DNA from: Clostridium sp. CAG:914
GTDB lineage: Bacteria > Bacillota_I > Bacilli_A > RF39 > UBA660
DNA length: 17,475 nt
Reading direction: 5' to 3'
NCBI GenBank assembly: GCA_000437895.1
Contig: FR902159.1
Location: forward strand, 20,487-37,961
Translations under genes and position numbers: made by a program
The notes under the pieces: generated by a model
Told to the model about the DNA's origin: nothing
The model's database searches: none
The model's input: only the letters and a program-made list of their open reading frames with translations
In this document: piece after piece, positions 6,670 to 17,475 of the stretch
Layout: each line of letters opens with the position of its first letter
Numbering within the stretch: position 1 is the first letter of the stretch

Positions 6670-7110
6670 ATGAACAATAATTATTATAATATACCTGTAG
6701 ATTGGTATAGTATGGACACTATTAATAGTTATGATAACATAATTAATGATAGATCTGGTAATTTATTAAGTCCAAAGGATGGTTTCTTAAAAGGAAATAT
6801 GTTTAATAACTTATATAGCAAATATAAAAACTATCCAATTAATGACTTAAATATCCAAAATAAAAGAGAAGAATTATTATATAATTATATGATGTATAAC
6901 TTTACTCTAACAGATTTAGGATTATATCTAGATAATTACCCTAATGATGTTAACGTTATTAACTTATATAACAATTACCTAAACGAATACTACAAAATAT
7001 TAAACGAATATGAAAGAAATTATGGACCATTAACAATCGATAGTCATTATCTAAATACAAGCCCTTGGACTTGGGATAATTCACCATGGCCATGGGAGGT
7101 GACTAAATAA
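6670..7110 (+). CDS. cotJB: Spore coat protein CotJB with an N-terminal CotJA-like extension (apparent CotJA-CotJB fusion)
   Basis: The C-terminal half, FTLTDLGLYLDNYPND...YERNYGPLT...SPWTWDNSPWPWEV, matches CotJB. The N-terminal half, LLSPKDGFLKGNMFNNLYSKYKNYP, resembles the CotJA core (sP.EAL.kGTLw..Ly..Y.nP). GGGAGG RBS. The stop overlaps the cotJC ATG. Confidence 0.75.
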   Translation: MNNNYYNIPVDWYSMDTINSYDNIINDRSGNLLSPKDGFLKGNMFNNLYSKYKNYPINDLNIQNKREELLYNYMMYNFTLTDLGLYLDNYPNDVNVINLYNNYLNEYYKILNEYERNYGPLTIDSHYLNTSPWTWDNSPWPWEVTK

Positions 7111-7667
7111 TGTGGAAATATGTTAAAAGTCTAGAATACCCTGTTAATATAAAAAAGAAAGATTTAAAAATGGCTAAATATCTAGTTACACAATATGGTG
7201 GTGCTAACGGAGAACTAGGAGCTGCCTTAAGATACTTAAATCAAAGATATACTATGCCAGATGAAAAAGGAAAAGCTCTACTTACCGATATCGGTACAGA
7301 AGAATTAGCCCATGTAGAAATAATATCAGCTATGGTATACCAATTATTAAAAGGAGCAACAAAAGAAGAATTAGAAAACGCTGGATTAGGTTCACATTAT
7401 ACTGAACATGGTAATGCCCTATATCCAACAGATTCAAATGGTGTTCCCTTTACCGTAGCTTACTTTGCCACAACAGGAGACCCACTCGCTGATTTATCTG
7501 AAGATATGGCTGCTGAAGAAAAAGCAAGAGCCACATATGAACACCTAATTACCCTAACTAATGATAAAGATATTATTGATGTATTGTTATTTTTAAGACA
7601 AAGAGAAATTATTCACTTTCAAAGATTTAAAGAATTATATGATGAATATAAGAAAAAAGGATACTAA
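7110..7667 (+). CDS. cotJC: Spore coat protein CotJC (manganese-catalase family)
   Basis: MWKYVKSLEYPVNIKKKDLKMAKYLVTQYGGANGELGAALRYLNQRYTMP and GTEELAHVEII are near-invariant CotJC and Mn-catalase di-metal ligand blocks. 185 aa. Confidence 0.9.
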   Translation: MWKYVKSLEYPVNIKKKDLKMAKYLVTQYGGANGELGAALRYLNQRYTMPDEKGKALLTDIGTEELAHVEIISAMVYQLLKGATKEELENAGLGSHYTEHGNALYPTDSNGVPFTVAYFATTGDPLADLSEDMAAEEKARATYEHLITLTNDKDIIDVLLFLRQREIIHFQRFKELYDEYKKKGY

Positions 7668-11400: not shown

Positions 11401-11750
11401 ATGTTATCCTATAAGCCACGTTCTGTACCTCTAAAAGAGGCGACAAACATTTATCTATGGTTTCCCATCCGTTTTATCATTCTTATTCTTCTAAAACAGT
11501 TCCCCTACCATTATTTGGGTTTCTCACTTGTGGGGTTTACCTCGTTTCATTCTATTCATTTCTAAATAGACTCGTCTCTGTGGCACTTTATATTCTTTTA
11601 ATCATAGAAATTCCTTAGACCAAAAGAATGCCGTTAGTCATAAGACTACCTTAGGTTATTTTTTCCCTAAGCACAAACACTACCATCATCACAGACAGTG
11701 TGAGCGTGGACTTTCCTCTATATCACTATAGCGTTTGTCCGGATAACAAT
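11401..11750 (-). ncRNA. rnpB: RNase P RNA, bacterial type B
   Basis: An ORF-free, relatively GC-rich stretch. Universal RNase P blocks on the minus strand: GAGGAAAGTCC (11718-11708), AAAGTGCCACAGAGACGAG (about 11589-11571), GGTAAACCCCACAAGTGAGAAACCCAAATAATGGTAGGGGAAC (11541-11499) and ACAGAACGTGGCTTAT (11426-11411). These are collinear with B. subtilis RNase P RNA. P1 pairs TGTTATCC (11748-11741) with GGATAACA (11409-11402). The ends are approximate, within about 5 nt. Confidence 0.9.
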
Positions 11751-12230: not shown

Positions 12231-13499
12231 TTACTTAGTATATTCAAATTCATAATCTAATATTTTAACAATATCACCTTCCTGAATACCCATCTTCTCA
12301 AGATCATCATCTACCCCCATATTTCTAAGTTTCATAGAAAATCTATTAATAGCCTCCTCAGTATTAAAATTCATCATCTTAAATATCCTTTCTACTTCCT
12401 TACCACTTATAACATAAGTATGACCCTCTTTAGTAATAGAATATGGCTTCTCTTTTTTAAACTTATATAACACATGACTTTCTTGTATATCATCTTCATA
12501 TAAAACATCATCTTCTGTCTCTTCAACCAAAACATTTAATTTATCAATTAACTCTTCTAAATTATCCTTATTAAGAGCAGATATAGAAATAACCTCTTCA
12601 CTAACCTTAGACTTAAATTCTCTCAAATTATCCAAACTACCATCAATATCCATCTTATTAGCAATAATAATTTCCTTCTTATTTAATAATTTCTCACTAA
12701 AACTAGCCAATTCTTTTCTAATAGCCATATAATCTTCATATGGATTTCTTCCCTCACTACCACTCATATCAATAACATGAGCAATTATTTTCGTTCTCTC
12801 AATATGTTTTAAAAATTTATGACCAAGACCAACGCCTAAAGAAGCACCTTCAATAAGCCCAGGCAAATCAGCAATAACAAAACTATTACCCTTGGTAGTA
12901 ACAACTCCCAAATTAGGAGATAAAGTTGTAAAATGATAACTTGCTATCTTAGGATTAGCATTAGTAATCATAGATAATATAGTACTCTTCCCAACACTAG
13001 GCATACCTACCAAACCAACATCAGCCATCATTCTAAGTTCAACTTTAATTTTTCTTACCTCACCAGGTTCACCACGTTCAGCAAAAGAAGGACAAGGATT
13101 ATTTTTCGTAGCCAAACTAACATTACCACGTCCACCACGTCCACCATAAGCAACGATTACTTCTTCACCCGGCTTAGTAAGATCAGCAACAACACTTCCC
13201 GTTTCCAAATCTTTTACCGTCGTACCAACAGGAACCTTAATAATCTTATCAACACTATCCTTACCCGTTTGATTCTTTCCCTCACCATTCTTACCAGCAT
13301 CACCAGTAATCTTCTTTAAATATCTCAAATCAATTAACGTTTTTAAACCCGTATCTGTCTTAAAAATAATATTAGCACCATGTCCACCAGACCCACCATT
13401 AGGCCCCCCCATTGGCACAAACTTCTCTCTCCTATATGCCATACAGCCATCTCCACCACGACCAGCACAAACTTCCATAATAACTTCATCCACGAACAT
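12231..13499 (-). CDS. obg: GTPase Obg/CgtA
   Basis: MFVDEVIMEVCAGRGGDGCMAYRREKFVPMGGPNGGSGGHGANIIF (glycine-rich Obg fold), G1 GMPSVGKST, G3 DLPGLIEGA, G4 NKMD, and a C-terminal OCT/TGS-like domain. Start set at the ATG at 13499. Confidence 0.95.
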   Translation of the reverse strand: MFVDEVIMEVCAGRGGDGCMAYRREKFVPMGGPNGGSGGHGANIIFKTDTGLKTLIDLRYLKKITGDAGKNGEGKNQTGKDSVDKIIKVPVGTTVKDLETGSVVADLTKPGEEVIVAYGGRGGRGNVSLATKNNPCPSFAERGEPGEVRKIKVELRMMADVGLVGMPSVGKSTILSMITNANPKIASYHFTTLSPNLGVVTTKGNSFVIADLPGLIEGASLGVGLGHKFLKHIERTKIIAHVIDMSGSEGRNPYEDYMAIRKELASFSEKLLNKKEIIIANKMDIDGSLDNLREFKSKVSEEVISISALNKDNLEELIDKLNVLVEETEDDVLYEDDIQESHVLYKFKKEKPYSITKEGHTYVISGKEVERIFKMMNFNTEEAINRFSMKLRNMGVDDDLEKMGIQEGDIVKILDYEFEYTK

Positions 13500-13633: not shown

Positions 13634-14671
13634 TTAAAACATAATATTTTCTATTTCTCTATATATCTTCTGATATATATGATAACTATTTGCATGCCTT
13701 ATATGTGAAGACCAACTATTAAAACTAAGCATCATCTTCTTCCTATCCAAACATCCCATATTATTATCTTTTTTCCATTTCTTAATTCTCTTTTTTATTT
13801 TTCTTTTACTACTATTTCTAATAAGTCTATACCCATCATATATCCTATAACCACAAAAATTAACTCCCATCTTTGAAGGATAATATCTACTTTTATTATT
13901 CAATTCTAATTTTAATTCCTTATTTAAAAACATCTTTATCTTTTCCATAACTATCCTACATTTTTCTTTCGTAGAAAGAAGAATTACCATATCATCCATA
14001 TATCTCACATAATACCTAACCTTAAGCACTTCCTTAACATATCTATCTAATATACTTAAATATATATTAGCAAAATATTGTGAAGTATAATTCCCTATCG
14101 GTATTCCCTTATCTATTTCATCATCATATATAAATATTTTAGTTAACCAAAGTATTTTTTTATCACTAACGAAACTATTCATTATCTTATATAATATATT
14201 TTTATCAATATTATAAAAATATTTCTTAATATCTAACTTAAGAACATAATATTTACCATATTTTCTTTTCATAATATTAATATATTTATCTACCATCAAA
14301 ACAGCATAATGAGTCCCCCTATTATCAATGCAAGCACAACAAGTATTAATTATTCTAGGTATAATATAAGGTTTTATAAATTCATAAATATACCATTGTT
14401 GTACTATTCTATCTCTATAAGGTAAACACTTAATAATTCTTTCTTTAGGTTCATATATTGTAAATACTTTATACTTACCAAGTCTATAACTACCATTCTT
14501 TAAACTATTCATAATTCCAACTATATTAGTCTCAATATCAACACTAAATTTAAGTAATTCATACCTATTAGTCTTATTTTTTTTAGCTCTATCATGTGAT
14601 CTAAGTAAAGATTCAAATGTTAACTTTTTATAAAAACAATTCTTTATACTTTTAGACATGACTTTATCCAT
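13634..14671 (-). CDS. DGR-type reverse transcriptase
   Basis: 345 aa, RT domain only, with no maturase, endonuclease or RNase H domain. Motifs: EPKERIIKCLPYRDRIVQQ (RT1/2), VLKLDIKKYFYNID (RT3), GIPIGNYTSQYFANIYL (the IGNxxSQ motif 4 characteristic of DGR RTs), YVRYMDDMVIL (YMDD box, as in Bordetella bRT), FCGYRI, and the C-terminal SWSSHIRHANSY. It overlaps avd by 28 nt. Confidence 0.85.
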   Translation of the reverse strand: MDKVMSKSIKNCFYKKLTFESLLRSHDRAKKNKTNRYELLKFSVDIETNIVGIMNSLKNGSYRLGKYKVFTIYEPKERIIKCLPYRDRIVQQWYIYEFIKPYIIPRIINTCCACIDNRGTHYAVLMVDKYINIMKRKYGKYYVLKLDIKKYFYNIDKNILYKIMNSFVSDKKILWLTKIFIYDDEIDKGIPIGNYTSQYFANIYLSILDRYVKEVLKVRYYVRYMDDMVILLSTKEKCRIVMEKIKMFLNKELKLELNNKSRYYPSKMGVNFCGYRIYDGYRLIRNSSKRKIKKRIKKWKKDNNMGCLDRKKMMLSFNSWSSHIRHANSYHIYQKIYREIENIMF

Positions 14672-15000
14672 CCACCAAGTAAATTCCCTATATTATATAT
14701 CTTCTTACTCCAAGCACTATAATTCTTACTATTAATATATTTCTTTTTATAAGATACCCTAATCATTACTTTTAACATCTTAAGTTCTACATCTATTTCA
14801 TTTAAAATAATTATTCTTTTATTCTTATTAAATTCCTTATTAGCAAGTATTATCTTTCTCATACCATTATAAGTAATTCTTTTTATCTCATCAACCATTG
14901 CTCCCTTTTCACTTTTCGGATACTTTAAAGTAATATTTTCCGTATAATATATCATCCCTAAATATTGTTTATATATCATTAATCCTTCTAACTCATTCAT
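14644..15000 (-). CDS. avd: Accessory variability determinant (Avd)-like four-helix-bundle protein
   Basis: 118 aa, very basic and predicted all-helical. KYPKSEKGAMVDEIKR, ELKMLKVMIRVSYKKKYIN and the C-terminal IGNLLGGWIKS fit the Avd / 'S23-IVS' four-helix-bundle pattern. It sits immediately upstream of the RT and overlaps it. Confidence 0.7.
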   Translation of the reverse strand: MNELEGLMIYKQYLGMIYYTENITLKYPKSEKGAMVDEIKRITYNGMRKIILANKEFNKNKRIIILNEIDVELKMLKVMIRVSYKKKYINSKNYSAWSKKIYNIGNLLGGWIKSCLKV

Positions 15001-15361
15001 TTAATAACTCCTTAAACTTATAAAGTATCTCTATCGCTTTTAACGGACTAATATTATCAATATCTATATCTTTAATCATCTTAATTATTTTATCATTTAT
15101 AACACCTCTATCATTATTATTTATTATCTCAACATCCAACTCTAAATTCTCAAATATTCCCATATATTTATCTATACTATTCTTAGGAAAACCACACTTT
15201 ACTATATTTTCATTTAATTTAGTAATTTTAAATGGTACATACTTACTTATCTTATAAGCATCATCATCGATAAATATATAAAACGTTCCACACTCAAATA
15301 AATAATATTTATTTTTATCAATATTCTTTTTTTCTAAATACTTCATATATAATTTACTCAC
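14993..15361 (-). CDS. MutS domain-I-like mini-protein (DGR accessory, MSL-type)
   Basis: 122 aa. YMKYLEKKNIDKNKYYLFECGTFYIFIDDDAYKISKYVPFKITKLNENIVKCGFPKNSIDKYMGIFENLELDVEI aligns by eye with the MutS N-terminal mismatch-binding domain ([45 protein letters not shown]...PMAGIPYHAVENYLAKLV). The C-terminal ISPLKAIEILYKFKELL resembles the MutS C-terminal TPxEAxxLLyeL helix. There is no ATPase domain. GTG start with GGAGG 6 nt upstream. The stop overlaps the avd ATG (ATGAATGA). Confidence 0.55.
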   Translation of the reverse strand: MSKLYMKYLEKKNIDKNKYYLFECGTFYIFIDDDAYKISKYVPFKITKLNENIVKCGFPKNSIDKYMGIFENLELDVEIINNNDRGVINDKIIKMIKDIDIDNISPLKAIEILYKFKELLNE

Positions 15362-15372
15362 ACTATGCCTCC

Positions 15373-15403
15373 AAAAAATAGCAGCACAAAAAAATTGTAC
15401 TGC
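15373..15403 (-). terminator. Terminator/attenuator-like hairpin immediately upstream of the msl-avd-RT ribosome-binding site
   Basis: Minus-strand sense: GCAGTAC (15403-15397), loop AATTTTTTT, GTGCTGC (15387-15381; 7 bp including one G-U pair), then TATTTTTT (15380-15373), which runs straight into GGAGG (15372-15368). Confidence 0.4.
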
Positions 15404-15523
15404 AAAAACTAATTTTGATAAACTCTCATTTTCACCATTTTACTACTCACGCGAATCTATCATTTTTTATGTGTATGTTCATCAACCATGAAAAGGAATA
15501 ATTTCTCTACGATAAAAACTAAT

Positions 15524-15543
15524 ATAATGTCCTTAAACATTAT
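15524..15543 (-). other. Small hairpin about 25 nt downstream of the target-gene stop and candidate VR
   Basis: ATAATGT / ACATTAT 7-bp inverted repeat with a 6-nt loop. On the minus strand it is followed by ATTAGTTTTTAT. It could be a weak terminator or a DGR-associated VR-flanking hairpin. Confidence 0.3.
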
Positions 15544-15567
15544 CCCCTAGCATAATATAATTATCTA

Positions 15568-17475
15568 TTATTGTAGTCTACCAACGACCAAAACCGAGCG
15601 GGCGGCACTATTGATGTTGGCACTACCGTTGTAGATGTCGAAGCTAAACGTGCCCGCACTAGAATCAGTGTTGTAGCCGCCGCCACGCAAGAACCACGGA
15701 TTACCAGCATAGACAAAGCTGGCACTATCATCATACCAATCACTTACTTCGGATAATCCATGTCCATAACATATCCCATCATTACACGCCGTTAGTGAAT
15801 TAGTTGCCGTATAATCATCATAATATTTACTATTAGGTTGGCTTGAGAAACCCGCATAATTACTTAATGAAGTTGCTCCCCACGTACTACCAGCTGGACT
15901 ATAATATCCCATAACATATTCCCAAGCACCACCAGACATATCATACACTCCAGTAATATTGCCTGTCGTACTAGATACTTTACTTATATCATGTGTACTA
16001 CTCTTCGTATTGGTATTATATTCTAGTAAATATCCATCCCAAGTATAAAAGCCATAATAAGTATTATATTGTGAGGTAGATGTTTGACTGGTATATACCG
16101 TATTAATTGCGGTACTTCCACCGACATTTCCGCCACTTCTTCCCGTATAATATCCAGATGAATTATTAATGTATATTTCTCGATTTGCTCCATATCTACT
16201 ATGAGATAAATATGCTACTGCTCCCCATTCACTATTCTTCATCATATGTGCATCGACATTACTAGTCATTCCGTATGTACTTGTCCCAAATCTTTGAGCA
16301 GTTGTAAATTCTGCTGATACTGTTTGGTTTCTAAGAGAACTGATATTGGGCATTATTAATGGAGCCGTAGCCGTTCCACCAGTTTCAAACTTTCCTACCC
16401 AAATACCATTTACTTCGGTATTACCAAATGTAAAGGCTGGATGAGTATAATAAGTATTAACTGCATCTCCCAAAGTTTTAGTTGTTGATTTATCTTCATA
16501 TATAATATCAATTTCTCTTGGACCTGTATAATTATATGAAGAAGAAATTTCCATCGTATATGTTATCTGATTATCTGAATTATTTTGATTATACATGTCA
16601 ATAAGTTGAGAAGTAGTCACTTCAATTCCAAGACTAGCATTTGAAAAAGTACCTGTTTGAAGGGCATTATTTACATCTGTCGTTGCTTCTTCCAATGTAT
16701 AACTAGTAAATCCAGCACTCTGGGCATAAGCATGCACCCAATTAATAAGTAATGTCTTATCACTATCACTTAATACATATATGTCAATAAGTTGAGAAGT
16801 AGACATTTCAATTCCAAGACTAGCATTTGAAAAAATACCTTTCTGAAGAGCATTATTTACATCTGTCGTTGCTTCTTCTAATGTATATGGACCTGAAACA
16901 AATCCTTGATTAATAGCATCTTGCACATAACTATACCACCAATTAATAAGTAATGTCTTATCACTATCACTTAATACATATACATAACATTCAGGATTTT
17001 CCTCATATGTTGGATTAGTTAATGTACTACATTTAACTTCTGGTATTCGGTATTTATACCTAGGTATCCATACATAATAAGCCAATATATCTTCTTCTGA
17101 TACTACAACTCCAGAAGTATTCTGATAAGTACTTCTAGAACTATCATTTACTAAAACCATATTAGCCCATTCCTTATTATTATAATTATACCAAGAAGCA
17201 TCATCTTCAGATACTGTTGAAGTTATTCCATTACTAGATATTACTACTGGTATCATTCCATCTTTAATATCTGGTTTACTTGCTGGAACATCATTCATAC
17301 AACTACCATTTAATGATAAACTAAATGACTGATTCATGGTTTCACTACTTGTCTCTTCAGCATCTAACCATATCCATAAATAATATGTCTCCGTAGCTGT
17401 CGCTGTATATTCTTTTGAAGTGAGTAAATTAACTTTATCACCAGTTATCTTTCCATTAAAATTACCAGAGCTTAC
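15568..17475 (-). CDS. DGR target (variable) protein with a C-terminal FGE-sulfatase / C-type-lectin-like domain; the 5' end runs off the right window edge
   Basis: The frame stays open for all 46 codons upstream of the track's ATG (17337) to the window end (VSSGNFNGKITGDKVNLL...), so the protein is longer than 635 aa. The C-terminal roughly 320 aa carry GIWVGKFE, MMKNSEWGAVAYL, GVYDMSGGAWEYV and WFLRGGGYN....ARSVLV. These correspond to the FGE-sulfatase-type fold used by many DGR variable proteins (DMxGNvWEW ... RGGSW ... GFR). Confidence 0.8.
   Translation of the reverse strand, partial: VSSGNFNGKITGDKVNLLTSKEYTATATETYYLWIWLDAEETSSETMNQSFSLSLNGSCMNDVPASKPDIKDGMIPVVISSNGITSTVSEDDASWYNYNNKEWANMVLVNDSSRSTYQNTSGVVVSEEDILAYYVWIPRYKYRIPEVKCSTLTNPTYEENPECYVYVLSDSDKTLLINWWYSYVQDAINQGFVSGPYTLEEATTDVNNALQKGIFSNASLGIEMSTSQLIDIYVLSDSDKTLLINWVHAYAQSAGFTSYTLEEATTDVNNALQTGTFSNASLGIEVTTSQLIDMYNQNNSDNQITYTMEISSSYNYTGPREIDIIYEDKSTTKTLGDAVNTYYTHPAFTFGNTEVNGIWVGKFETGGTATAPLIMPNISSLRNQTVSAEFTTAQRFGTSTYGMTSNVDAHMMKNSEWGAVAYLSHSRYGANREIYINNSSGYYTGRSGGNVGGSTAINTVYTSQTSTSQYNTYYGFYTWDGYLLEYNTNTKSSTHDISKVSSTTGNITGVYDMSGGAWEYVMGYYSPAGSTWGATSLSNYAGFSSQPNSKYYDDYTATNSLTACNDGICYGHGLSEVSDWYDDSASFVYAGNPWFLRGGGYNTDSSAGTFSFDIYNGSANINSAARSVLVVGRLQ
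15580..15744 (-). repeat. Candidate DGR variable repeat (VR) with a 3' GC-rich IMH-like block
   Basis: The last 55 sense codons before ...GRLQ* contain no codon ending in A. Sense-strand A is 30/165 and G+C is 85/165 by hand count, in a window that is otherwise about 30% G+C. The segment is rich in AAC/AAT/TAC/AGT/GAT-type codons (YNTDSS, FSFDIYNGSANINS). GCCGCCCGCTCGG (15606-15594) lies at the 3' end. No partner TR was seen in the window, so the repeat status is inferred rather than observed. Confidence 0.6.
16595..16981 (-). repeat. In-frame tandem duplication (186 bp + 201 bp) inside the target gene
   Basis: 16595-16780 and 16781-16981 share near-identical flanks (ATGTCAATAAGTTGAGAAGTAG... 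and ...ATTAATAAGTAATGTCTTATCACTATCACTTAATACATAT) around a divergent centre. The encoded units are YVLSDSDKTLLINW...TLEEATTDVNNALQ.G.FSNASLGIE..TSQLID. Confidence 0.9.

What the first reader, a model, noticed from the sequence alone, without database searches (positions are those of the whole stretch)
15580..15744. A 165-nt compositional island at the 3' end of the target gene has the signature of a DGR variable repeat
- **Wobble positions.** Read in the gene's frame, 55 consecutive codons (15744 down to 15580) have no adenine at the wobble position. The four codons that follow (AGA CTA CAA TAA) and the codons just upstream (GTA, GAA, TTA) revert to the A/T-ending usage seen across the window.
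- **Composition.** Sense-strand A is 30/165 and G+C is 85/165 by my count, against about 30% G+C elsewhere.
- **Coding pattern.** The residues are the classic AAC-derived set (Y N T D S S ... F S F D I Y N G S A N I N S), embedded in invariant GGC/GCC/CGC codons.
- **3' end.** The segment ends in GCCGCCCGCTCGG (15606-15594), which resembles the GC-rich initiation-of-mutagenic-homing block.

Avoiding adenine except at the first two positions of diversified codons is exactly what adenine-specific mutagenesis selects for.
Basis: seen in the sequence. Interest (0 to 1): 0.75.

Follow-up and report, generated by a model that had tools for sequence, protein, structure and literature searches.

The report
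Fossil DGR variable repeat, template lost
The GC-rich island is a real variable repeat of a diversity-generating retroelement in a gut Clostridium surface-protein gene, but a ~320-base deletion has joined it to the far side of its template repeat, so no separate template remains and the repeat looks frozen.

Summary
Codons 15744..15580 (minus strand) have no wobble adenine, 30 A and 85 G+C in 165 nt, in a window of 29% G+C.

The island is DGR-derived. 147 nt (15726..15580) align to the template repeats (TR) of syntenic relatives of Clostridium sp. CAG:914. Thirteen of 14 mismatches sit at TR adenines (P = 4.5e-8). Across 84 distinct relatives, variation is concentrated in TR-adenine codons.

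Downstream lie a MutS-like gene, avd and an intact DGR-type reverse transcriptase.

The window has no TR. In relatives the order is VR, stop, hairpin, spacer, TR. Here the repeat runs straight into the sequence that follows the TR, which explains the AGA CTA CAA TAA tail.

The same junction occurs in 10 loci of this lineage, from several sequencing runs and four kinds of assembly, so I read it as a real VR x TR deletion (about 85%), not an assembly collapse.

In this lineage the VR varies no more than the rest of the protein, and some members carry damaged avd or RT.

Verdict: a known kind of element in a degenerate, template-less state.

The parts
15568..17475 (-). DGR target gene, whose 5' end runs off the window. 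The C-terminal part is FGE-sulfatase-like (the C-type-lectin superfamily, per Wu 2018).
   Evidence: The reading frame is open to the window edge. NCBI annotates only the last 589 aa (CDE95894.1, Clostridium sp. CAG:914). Relatives are about 700 aa with an N-terminal hydrophobic anchor. The C-terminal 320 aa score 23.8 bits against PF03781 (cut-off 23.3), and 40 of 44 relatives match it.
15580..15726 (-). VR-derived hybrid repeat (147 nt, 49 codons). The body is VR-type (diversified); the 3' junction leads into the TR flank.
   Evidence: Aligned to the orthologous TRs of L005 and L008: 133 matches, 13 mismatches at TR adenines and 1 at a non-adenine.
15727..15744 (-). They lie outside the VR/TR homology.
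   Evidence: Homology to the TRs starts at 15726.
15594..15606 (-). GC-rich block GCCGCCCGCTCGG. It is shared in identical form by the VR and TR of relatives and is analogous to the GC-rich start of IMH/IMH*.
   Evidence: The definition of IMH is taken from PMC5758913.
15580..15613 (-). Interval that contains the VR x TR crossover. It lies 3' of the last adenine-derived difference (T at 15614 in ATC). It narrows to 15580-15606 if the T at 15607 (AGT against TR AGG) is VR-specific.
   Evidence: Alignment to TRs and the junction comparison.
15362..15579 (-). Sequence that follows the TR in relatives (the TR 3' flank and spacer leading to the MSL gene). Its first 12 nt now supply the target's last three codons and its stop (AGA CTA CAA TAA, 15579-15568).
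   Evidence: Identical to the post-TR sequence of L001 except for one base. The same holds in L005, L007 and L008.
14993..15361 (-). MutS-like (MSL) DGR accessory gene, 122 aa.
   Evidence: PF01624 MutS_I, E = 5.8e-9. The MSL accessory class is described in PMC5758913.
14644..15000 (-). avd (accessory variability determinant), 118 aa, intact.
   Evidence: PF22296 bAvd, E = 9.7e-21. NF033474 DivGenRetAVD, E = 2.6e-20, at 72.7 bits against a cut-off of 80.
13634..14671 (-). DGR-type reverse transcriptase, 345 aa, intact. It contains IGNYTSQ and YMDD.
   Evidence: PF00078, E = 6.8e-18. The best solved-structure match is 8ub7_A, a 328-aa reverse transcriptase, E = 2e-47 over residues 7-334. It is about 34% identical over its full length to RTs of DGR-carrying phages. 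The motifs are read from the translation.

Best explanation
The island is the variable repeat (VR) of a chromosomal diversity-generating retroelement. The ancestral layout was: target gene (VR at its 3' end), stop, short inverted repeat, about 175-nt spacer, TR, MSL, avd, RT.

The VR's composition comes from its template. The TR places adenines only at the first two positions of AAC/AAT/AGT-type codons and uses C, G or T everywhere else. Adenine-specific misincorporation by the RT therefore recodes about 22 residues of an FGE-sulfatase-like binding surface and cannot create stop codons or damage scaffold residues.

In the window's lineage, a deletion of about 320 nt between the directly repeated, identical 3' ends of the VR and TR removed four things: the native stop codon, the VR-specific flank with its inverted repeat, the spacer, and the TR body. 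I infer the mechanism to be homologous recombination or replication slippage, with the crossover within 15580-15613.

What remains is one hybrid repeat with a VR body and a TR 3' flank. The protein now ends ...VVGRLQ instead of ...VVGS. With no separate template and no VR-type recipient flank, mutagenic retrohoming can no longer renew the sequence. The VR is a frozen record of its last diversification, and MSL, avd and RT are orphaned. They are still intact here but damaged in several sister strains.

Shown: the VR's identity, the absence of a TR from the window, the junction, and the recurrence of the junction. Inferred: the deletion mechanism and the loss of activity.
For: **The segment is a VR.**
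- Mismatches to orthologous TRs fall at TR adenines in 13 of 14 cases, hypergeometric P = 4.5e-8.
- Relatives' own VR/TR pairs show the same pattern: 15-23 adenine mismatches against 1-3 others.
- Across 84 distinct C-termini, entropy is 2.50 bits at the 22 TR-adenine codons, 0.53 bits at the other 27 codons and 0.39 bits upstream.

**The cassette is a DGR cassette.**
- MutS_I, bAvd and RVT_1 domains are present.
- The RT matches 8ub7 at E = 2e-47 and phage DGR RTs, including Bordetella phages.

**The TR is missing.**
- No second copy is found by repeat search or by adenine-tolerant alignment on either strand.
- No other G+C island exists in the window.
- The alignment to L001 shows one gap of about 320 nt, with near-identity resuming at the TR and continuing through its flank.
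- The inverted repeat TGATGCGAAGCATCA that follows the VR in relatives is absent from the window even with 3 mismatches allowed.

**The junction is real.**
- An identical junction is found in L006 and L011-L018. These are Logan contigs from seven accessions, a MEGAHIT k141 contig and a scaffold.
- Logan contigs are non-branching paths of a k = 31 graph built from k-mers seen at least twice (PMC12424806).
- Logan contigs do traverse intact VR-spacer-TR loci when the longest shared exact stretch is 29-30 nt (L007 and L008).
- In L006, and in L010 (a different fused lineage), single 31-mers contain both a base that differs from every TR seen and the TR flank.

**The VR is frozen.**
- Within the lineage, 4 of 49 VR columns vary against 63 of 656 outside the VR.
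- At 2-5% backbone divergence, pairs of fused alleles differ at 26% of adenine codons; pairs of intact alleles differ at 65%.

**The cassette is decaying in sister strains.**
- Fused strains carry a 13-aa deletion in Avd, a 19-aa deletion or a 17-nt frameshift in the RT, or a fully degraded cassette.
Against: - No raw reads were examined, so the junction rests on assemblies. The window comes from a pooled co-abundance assembly (CAG).
- The lineage's own TR is unknown. If it carried AGT rather than AGG, the shared 3' stretch would be 34 nt, and the 31-mer argument for L006 would weaken. The contiguity argument and the k141 contig would still stand.
- The fused type occurs on at least 10 different VR backbones, some with TR-like Asn-rich 3' halves (P0016, P0017, P0049). 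That recurrence also fits a systematic assembly error.
- The few differences within the fused lineage fall in TR-adenine codons (4 of 4 variable columns). This could hint at residual mutagenesis.
- MSL, avd and RT are intact in the window, which would be unexpected after a long period without function.
- The pairwise comparison uses phylogenetically non-independent pairs.
- Only 17.5 kb of the genome was seen, so a remote TR cannot be excluded.
Confidence: 0.8

Rival explanations
1. Assembly collapse. The real genome has the full VR-hairpin-spacer-TR arrangement and an active DGR. Short-read assemblers jumped from the VR into the TR flank through the shared 3' stretch and dropped the roughly 320-nt loop.
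For: - VR and TR share exact stretches of 25-37 nt in intact relatives.
- The fused form appears on many VR backbones. It sometimes has a crossover in the middle of the repeat, giving TR-like NFNNNNGNANNN tails.
- P0100 (fused) and P0101 (intact) have the same VR.
- The window comes from a pooled CAG assembly that also shows an odd tandem of two allelic modules.
- MSL, avd and RT are intact in the window.
Against: - All 17 distinct proteins of the window's lineage (the 16-member P0002 cluster and P0001) are the fused type; none is intact.
- The 10 loci read as DNA all share one junction: Logan k = 31 contigs, MEGAHIT k141, a scaffold assembly and the NCBI CAG assembly.
- A unitig-style k = 31 assembler should break at a repeated 31-mer, not pass through it (method).
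- The same pipeline assembles intact loci correctly (L007 and L008).
- In L010 and L006, 31-mers span a VR-specific base and the TR flank.
- P0100 and P0101 come from strains 1.2% apart, and the intact one has lost avd and RT. They are therefore different genomes, not two assemblies of one genome.
- The VR is not hypervariable in the fused lineage.
Confidence: 0.12
2. The deletion is real, but the DGR still works with a remote TR located outside the 17.5-kb window.
For: - RT, Avd and MSL are intact in the window.
- DGRs with remote targets or separated components are known (PMC5758913).
- The small differences within the fused lineage lie in TR-adenine codons.
Against: - In every intact relative the TR sits at the orthologous site that is deleted here.
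- The fused repeat lacks the VR-type flank and inverted repeat that mark a recipient.
- The VR shows no excess variation in the lineage.
- Sister strains carry damaged avd or RT.
- One of the differences is a synonymous C-to-T change, and two are T-to-C and T-to-G changes, as expected from ordinary mutation.
Confidence: 0.04
3. Single-repeat, self-templating DGR. The hybrid repeat is transcribed together with the TR 3' flank and serves as both template and recipient, so its own adenines are mutated in a one-way ratchet.
For: - The hybrid repeat keeps the complete TR 3' flank, which in the Bordetella phage system carries the priming determinants (my knowledge of that system, not tested here).
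- RT and Avd are intact.
- Within the lineage, three changes are A-to-N. One site shows T, C and G in different strains, as if derived from an ancestral A.
Against: - No recipient-type flank or inverted repeat is present.
- The changes are few, and no more frequent than elsewhere in the protein.
- One change is C-to-T at a wobble position.
- By my hand count, 25 of the 44 first and second positions of the hypervariable codons are A anyway. Relaxed constraint at these surface residues therefore explains the pattern.
- Several sister strains have broken RT or Avd.
Confidence: 0.03
4. The island is unrelated to a DGR: a local codon-usage or horizontal-transfer patch.
For: G+C is 51% against a 29% background.
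Against: - Homologous TRs show adenine-restricted mismatches.
- A DGR cassette lies immediately downstream.
- Variability among relatives is specific to TR-adenine codons.
Confidence: 0.01

Closest known systems
MSL-containing DGRs (Architecture D of Wu et al. 2018, PMC5758913) with CLec1/FGE-sulfatase targets of the Treponema TvpA type
   Same: - The target carries its VR at the C-terminus of an FGE-sulfatase-like domain.
- A small MutS-domain-I accessory protein sits next to avd and a DGR RT, all on one strand.
- In relatives, the TR uses AAC-rich codons, the VR and TR share a GC-rich 3' block, and a short inverted repeat follows the VR.
   Different: - In the window the TR, the spacer and the VR-specific flank are missing, leaving a single hybrid repeat.
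- In intact relatives the TR lies between the target and MSL (target-TR-MSL-avd-RT).
- I did not check whether that exact gene order is among the published Architecture D variants.
Bordetella phage BPP-1 DGR (mtd-avd-TR-brt)
   Same: - Adenine-specific differences between TR and VR.
- A GC-rich element at the 3' end of both repeats.
- An inverted repeat downstream of the VR only.
- Avd plus an RT. The RT's best solved-structure match is 8ub7, a 328-aa reverse transcriptase, and five Bordetella phage records are among the tblastn hits.
   Different: - This element is chromosomal and lies between housekeeping genes (glyA upstream in relatives, obg downstream); it is not in a phage.
- It has an additional MSL gene.
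- The target is a roughly 700-aa, apparently membrane-anchored protein, not a tail fibre.
- It is template-less here.
Degenerate or incomplete DGRs (orphan DGR-type RTs without a detectable TR/VR pair)
   Same: An intact DGR-type RT and Avd with no TR in the neighbourhood. Detection methods that rely on a TR/VR pair would find nothing to pair here.
   Different: Here the route to the incomplete state can be read directly. Syntenic relatives keep the missing 320 nt, and the junction lies in the identical 3' ends of the VR and TR. In two library searches I found no paper describing this route in natural populations. A reconstituted BPP-1 system reports TR-VR recombination as rare (PMC12875486).

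Membership tests
Diversity-generating retroelement (DGR) | A reverse transcriptase of the DGR clade | tested here: met
   The 345-aa ORF matches RVT_1 at E = 6.8e-18. Its best solved-structure match is 8ub7_A, a 328-aa reverse transcriptase, at E = 2e-47 over nearly the full length; group II intron RTs score only 7e-12. It is about 34% identical over its full length to RTs of DGR-carrying phages, with Bordetella phages among the hits. The sequence contains IGNYTSQ, which I know as the [LIV]GxxxSQ hallmark of DGR RTs, and YMDD. No RT phylogeny was built.
Diversity-generating retroelement (DGR) | A TR/VR pair in the same locus whose differences are restricted to TR adenines | tested here: not met
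   The window has no second copy. Against orthologous TRs of relatives the criterion is met: 13 of 14 mismatches are at TR adenines. The locus is therefore DGR-derived but is not a complete DGR as assembled.
Diversity-generating retroelement (DGR) | Variability confined to codons that carry TR adenines, in a ligand-binding scaffold (C-type lectin or Ig) | tested here: met
   Entropy is 2.50 bits at TR-adenine codons against 0.53 bits at the others (Mann-Whitney P = 5e-9). FGE-sulfatase is matched by the window protein (23.8 bits, cut-off 23.3) and by 40 of 44 relatives. The fold itself was not confirmed: the AlphaFold model had pLDDT 30.6, and no solved structure matched by sequence.
Diversity-generating retroelement (DGR) | IMH at the VR 3' end, distinguished from IMH* of the TR, often with a downstream inverted repeat | tested here: not met
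   The GC-rich block is present (15606-15594). The flank after 15580 is the TR-type flank, and the inverted repeat found after the VR in relatives is absent.
Diversity-generating retroelement (DGR) | Accessory protein Avd | tested here: met
   PF22296 bAvd at 74.7 bits (cut-off 40). NF033474 at 72.7 bits, just below its cut-off of 80.
Diversity-generating retroelement (DGR) | Ongoing diversification (within-population heterogeneity at adenine sites) | tested here: inconclusive
   No reads were available. Between strains of the fused lineage the VR varies no more than the rest of the protein (4 of 49 against 63 of 656 columns), which argues against activity.
MSL-type DGR (Architecture D, Wu et al. 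2018) | A small MutS-like accessory gene together with avd, and no HRDC gene | tested here: met
   The 122-aa protein matches MutS_I at E = 5.8e-9 and lies next to avd. None of the 15 window ORFs scanned against Pfam (two calls) matched HRDC.

The most novel reading that the evidence does not exclude
The hybrid repeat, which keeps the complete TR 3' flank and sits upstream of intact MSL, avd and RT, may still be reverse-transcribed and act as both template and recipient. That would be a one-repeat DGR that mutates its own adenines as a ratchet. Alternatively, VR x TR deletion may be a selected, recurrent way for this gut species to lock in a favourable surface-protein variant.
Probability: 0.05. 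Interest if true: 0.8.

Novelty: new member of a known kind. Interest (0 to 1): 0.4.

Why it matters
DGRs are abundant in the human gut. Detection methods that rely on finding a TR/VR pair have nothing to pair at a locus like this one, where an intact RT and Avd sit beside a VR with no TR.

The syntenic relatives show one concrete way such incomplete elements arise: deletion between the direct VR and TR repeats. In a single step this removes the template and freezes the variable protein.

In this species the fused form appears on at least ten VR backbones. It sits alongside other independent knock-outs: RT frameshifts, in-frame deletions in Avd and RT, and loss of the whole avd-RT segment. The species is therefore a natural series for studying how and why diversification is switched off.

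There is also a practical caution. Fused and intact forms can be told apart only by what follows GGTCGTTGGT, so assemblies of DGR loci need read-level checks.

Tried and rejected
- **TR search in the window.** Direct-repeat search with 7-nt seeds, local alignment on both strands and an ungapped adenine-tolerant scan found nothing. The TR is not in the window.
- **Exact-protein look-ups.** Look-ups for the window's RT and for the NCBI 589-aa protein found nothing on record. Context came from close homologs instead.
- **Species-representative genomes.** A scan for the 20-mer CGCTCGGTTTTGGTCGTTGG returned only a chance match in a GC-rich Proteobacteria MAG (L002), with no similarity to the window. 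I therefore could not search the whole CAG:914 genome for a remote TR.
- **A prediction that failed.** I predicted that Logan contigs always break at intact VR/TR pairs. L007 and L008 cross them. The refined explanation, that their shared exact stretches are 29-30 nt and so below k = 31, held.
- **Structure.** The AlphaFold model of the C-terminal 320 aa, built with 44 close homologs, had mean pLDDT 30.6 and is unusable. No fold search was run. A profile search of solved-structure sequences gave no hit, and Avd alone gave no hit either.
- **Rfam.** The only match in the window is RNase P RNA, with nothing at the DGR.
- **PDB entry 8ub7.** A literature search for the entry code found nothing, so its identity as the Bordetella phage RT is my assumption from its length and name.
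- **Residual adenine mutagenesis in the fused lineage.** I considered it and set it aside. The changes are few, include non-adenine changes, and are no denser than in the rest of the protein.
Full report
**1. The observation.**
The minus-strand ORF that ends at 15568 was read in frame. The 55 codons from 15744 to 15580 have no adenine at the wobble position. The segment has 30 A and 85 G+C in 165 nt. The next longest A-free wobble run in the gene is 12 codons, and wobble A is 35% in the rest of the gene, so the run is far beyond chance. The window averages 28.8% G+C, and no other stretch between 13500 and 17475 comes near 50%.

**2. The neighbourhood.**
Five genes lie on the same strand, in this order:
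- the target ORF, which is open to the window edge at 17475 and whose C-terminal 320 aa just pass the Pfam cut-off for FGE-sulfatase;
- a 122-aa MutS-domain-I protein (14993-15361);
- a 118-aa bAvd protein (14644-15000);
- a 345-aa reverse transcriptase (13634-14671);
- obg.

The RT's best solved-structure match is a 328-aa reverse transcriptase, 8ub7, at E = 2e-47 over almost the full length. That is far better than its matches to group II intron or retron RTs. It is about 34% identical to RTs of phages that carry DGRs, including Bordetella phages. Small MutS-like (MSL) proteins next to avd are a described DGR accessory class (Wu et al. 2018, PMC5758913). This is a DGR cassette.

**3. No template repeat in the window.**
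A direct-repeat search, a local alignment of the island against both strands, and a scan that forgives any mismatch at a template adenine all found nothing.

**4. What relatives show.**
The protein is 100% identical to CDE95894.1 of Clostridium sp. CAG:914 and has thousands of homologs in gut metagenomes. A syntenic relative, L001 (target 82% identical), has this order after the target's VR: TCT TAG; an inverted repeat TGATGCGAAGCATCA (folded as DNA, -6.4 kcal/mol); about 175 nt of spacer; a second copy of the repeat rich in AAC; and then AGACTACAATAATAGATAATTATATTATGCTAGGGG....

That last sequence is exactly what follows the island in the window. A pairwise alignment shows one gap of about 320 nt in the window. 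Near-identity resumes at the TR and continues through 206 nt of flank into the MSL gene. The inverted repeat is absent from the window.

So the island is a repeat with the target gene on its 5' side and the TR's flank on its 3' side.

**5. The island is VR-type.**
The TRs of L005 and L008 are identical to each other, and that of L001 differs from them at one base. Over 147 nt (15726-15580), the window differs from the L005/L008 TR at 14 positions. Thirteen are TR adenines; the exception is AGG to AGT. With 38 adenines in 147 positions, P = 4.5e-8. The relatives' own VR/TR pairs show 15-23 adenine mismatches and 1-3 others, plus occasional 3-nt indels.

Across 84 distinct C-termini, mean entropy is as follows:
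- 2.50 bits at the 22 codons with a TR adenine in position 1 or 2;
- 0.53 bits at the other 27 VR codons;
- 0.39 bits in the 150 residues upstream.

The first 18 nt of the island (15744-15727) lie outside the repeat.

**6. Real deletion or assembly collapse?**
Among the 120 closest homologs, the C-terminus is either ...VVGS (intact type) or ...VVGRLQ (fused type). About a quarter to a third are fused, on at least ten different VR backbones. That recurrence could mean a systematic assembly error, so I tested it.

- (a) Logan contigs are non-branching paths of a k = 31 de Bruijn graph built from k-mers seen at least twice (PMC12424806). They traverse intact VR-spacer-TR loci when the longest exact stretch shared by VR and TR is 29 or 30 nt (L007 and L008).
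- (b) In the fused Logan contig L010, one 31-mer contains both a VR-specific G (every TR seen has A there) and the first base of the TR flank. In L006, which has the window's VR, 31-mers contain the T of AGT (AGG in every TR seen) and the TR flank. Such k-mers must exist in reads.
- (c) Fused junctions also occur in MEGAHIT k141 contigs (L009 and L015) and in scaffolds of 80-145 kb (L003 and L016).
- (d) All 17 distinct proteins of the window's own lineage are the fused type and none is intact. These are the 16-member 90% cluster of P0002 plus P0001. All 10 loci read as DNA have the same junction.
- (e) The pair with identical VRs but different ends (P0100 fused, P0101 intact) comes from strains 1.2% apart. 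The intact one has lost avd and RT entirely. These are two different genomes, not two assemblies of one.

I put the probability of a real deletion at about 85%. No reads were examined, and the lineage's own TR is unknown.

**7. Consequences.**
Within the fused lineage, 67 of 705 alignment columns vary. Four of these fall in the 49 VR codons, no more than the background rate. At 2-5% backbone divergence, pairs of fused alleles differ at 26% of adenine codons (median 9%). Pairs of intact alleles differ at 65% (median 73%). These pairs are not phylogenetically independent, so this is a trend and not a formal test.

The cassette shows independent lesions in relatives:
- Avd lacks 13 aa in L006 and L014-L017;
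- the RT lacks 19 aa in L015-L017;
- the RT has a 17-nt frameshifting deletion in L014;
- the cassette is heavily degraded in L009 and L010;
- among intact-repeat strains, the RT has a 1-nt deletion in L001, and avd plus RT are deleted in L005.

In the window, and in L003, L011 and L012, all three genes are intact. The picture is a chromosomal DGR that this species repeatedly switches off by different routes. In the window's lineage the route was loss of the template.

**8. Residual activity?**
The four variable VR columns in the fused lineage all lie in TR-adenine codons (S/C538, I/T/S568, N/D574, N/D576). At the DNA level the five changes seen in the loci I could read are A-to-T, A-to-G, T-to-C, T-to-G and a synonymous C-to-T. 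The N/D576 variants (P0129 and P0131) were not read as DNA.

By my hand count, 25 of the 44 first and second positions of the hypervariable codons are A in this allele, and these are the least constrained residues of the protein. Ordinary mutation therefore explains the pattern. A self-templating single-repeat DGR is not excluded, but I give it only a few percent.

**9. Mechanism: what is shown and what is inferred.**
- Shown: the VR's identity, the design of the TR (adenines only at positions 1 and 2 of variable codons), the cassette's composition, the absence of a TR from the window, and the position and recurrence of the junction.
- Inferred from established DGR biology (PMC5758913): the RT copies TR RNA with errors at adenines, and the cDNA replaces the VR. 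The 3' limit is set by the IMH, helped by the downstream inverted repeat.
- Inferred here: the deletion arose by recombination or slippage between the identical 3' ends, with the crossover within 15580-15613, and it abolished diversification.

**10. Comparison and novelty.**
The element belongs with the MSL-containing DGRs that diversify FGE-sulfatase-like (CLec1) targets. In intact relatives the order is target-TR-MSL-avd-RT. The window's copy fails two defining tests of a complete DGR: it has no TR/VR pair, and it has no VR-type IMH context. I therefore file it as a DGR-derived, template-less remnant, not a working member.

The kind is known. The route of decay can be read directly from syntenic relatives, and in two library searches I found no published description of it for natural populations. 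TR-VR recombination is reported as rare in a reconstituted system (PMC12875486).

**11. Not achieved.**
No whole-genome search for a remote TR was possible.

Noticed in passing
window 16591-16887 (minus-strand target gene): There is a tandem 186-nt (62-aa) duplication in the target gene (copies 16591-16701 and 16777-16887, 93% identical; a second repeat pair, D3, extends it). The two copies correspond to two alternative allelic modules (WWYSYVQDAINQGFVSGPY... and WVHAYAQSAGFTSY...), and relatives carry only one of them. This could be a real duplication or a chimera of strains in the pooled CAG assembly.
   Followed up: partly
window 17337-17475: The target ORF is open to the window edge. NCBI's CDE95894.1 starts at the internal Met at 17337 (589 aa). 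Relatives are about 700 aa and begin MDKKKKIVGVLITLTIIFTVMGSTFAYLSW, a hydrophobic N-terminal anchor or signal. The protein is probably displayed on the cell surface.
   Followed up: partly
window 11407-11746 (-): Bacterial RNase P RNA, class B: 288 bits, E = 8e-85, full length. The mechanical ORF list covers its flanks.
   Followed up: no
L001:13336-14369; L014:7610-8627; L015:7683-8950; L005:9011-9108; L009:8355-9779: Relatives carry independent inactivating lesions in the DGR cassette. These are a 1-nt deletion (L001) and a 17-nt deletion (L014) at nearly the same place in the RT; in-frame losses of 13 aa in Avd and 19 aa in the RT (L015-L017); complete loss of avd plus RT (L005); and a heavily degraded cassette (L009 and L010).
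   Followed up: yes
P0121-P0134; L011-L018 repeat region: Within the template-less lineage, the few VR differences all fall in TR-adenine codons (S/C538, I/T/S568, N/D574, N/D576). One nucleotide site shows T, C and G in different strains. This is probably relaxed constraint at binding-surface residues, but it is worth a read-level look for residual adenine mutagenesis.
   Followed up: partly
P0016, P0017, P0049 (C-termini): Some fused alleles have a VR-like 5' third and a TR-like, Asn-rich remainder (…NFNNNNGNANNNWAARSVLVVGRLQ). The crossover is therefore early in the repeat, giving a protein with an unmutated, TR-encoded binding site. I did not determine whether these are real or assembly chimeras.
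   Followed up: no
L001:12073-12106 vs 12394-12427; L005 VR vs TR: VRs of intact relatives differ from their TRs by 3-nt indels (+3 in L001, -3 in L005) and by 1-3 non-adenine substitutions. Such non-canonical differences are mentioned by Wu et al. 2018.
   Followed up: no
P0051, P0074, P0109 (about 975-1038 aa homologs): Some homologs carry two tandem copies of the whole domain, each ending in a VR-like segment with a different 3' end (…SFRLVLSAV). They probably belong to other DGR loci with two VRs.
   Followed up: no
L002:4863-4882: The only hit of the VR/TR 3' 20-mer in the species-representative genome collection is a chance match in a GC-rich Proteobacteria MAG with no other similarity. 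The CAG:914 lineage's locus is evidently not in that collection.
   Followed up: yes
window 6670-7667 (+): cotJB and a manganese-catalase (CotJC-like) gene lie next to each other, suggesting the host forms spores.
   Followed up: no
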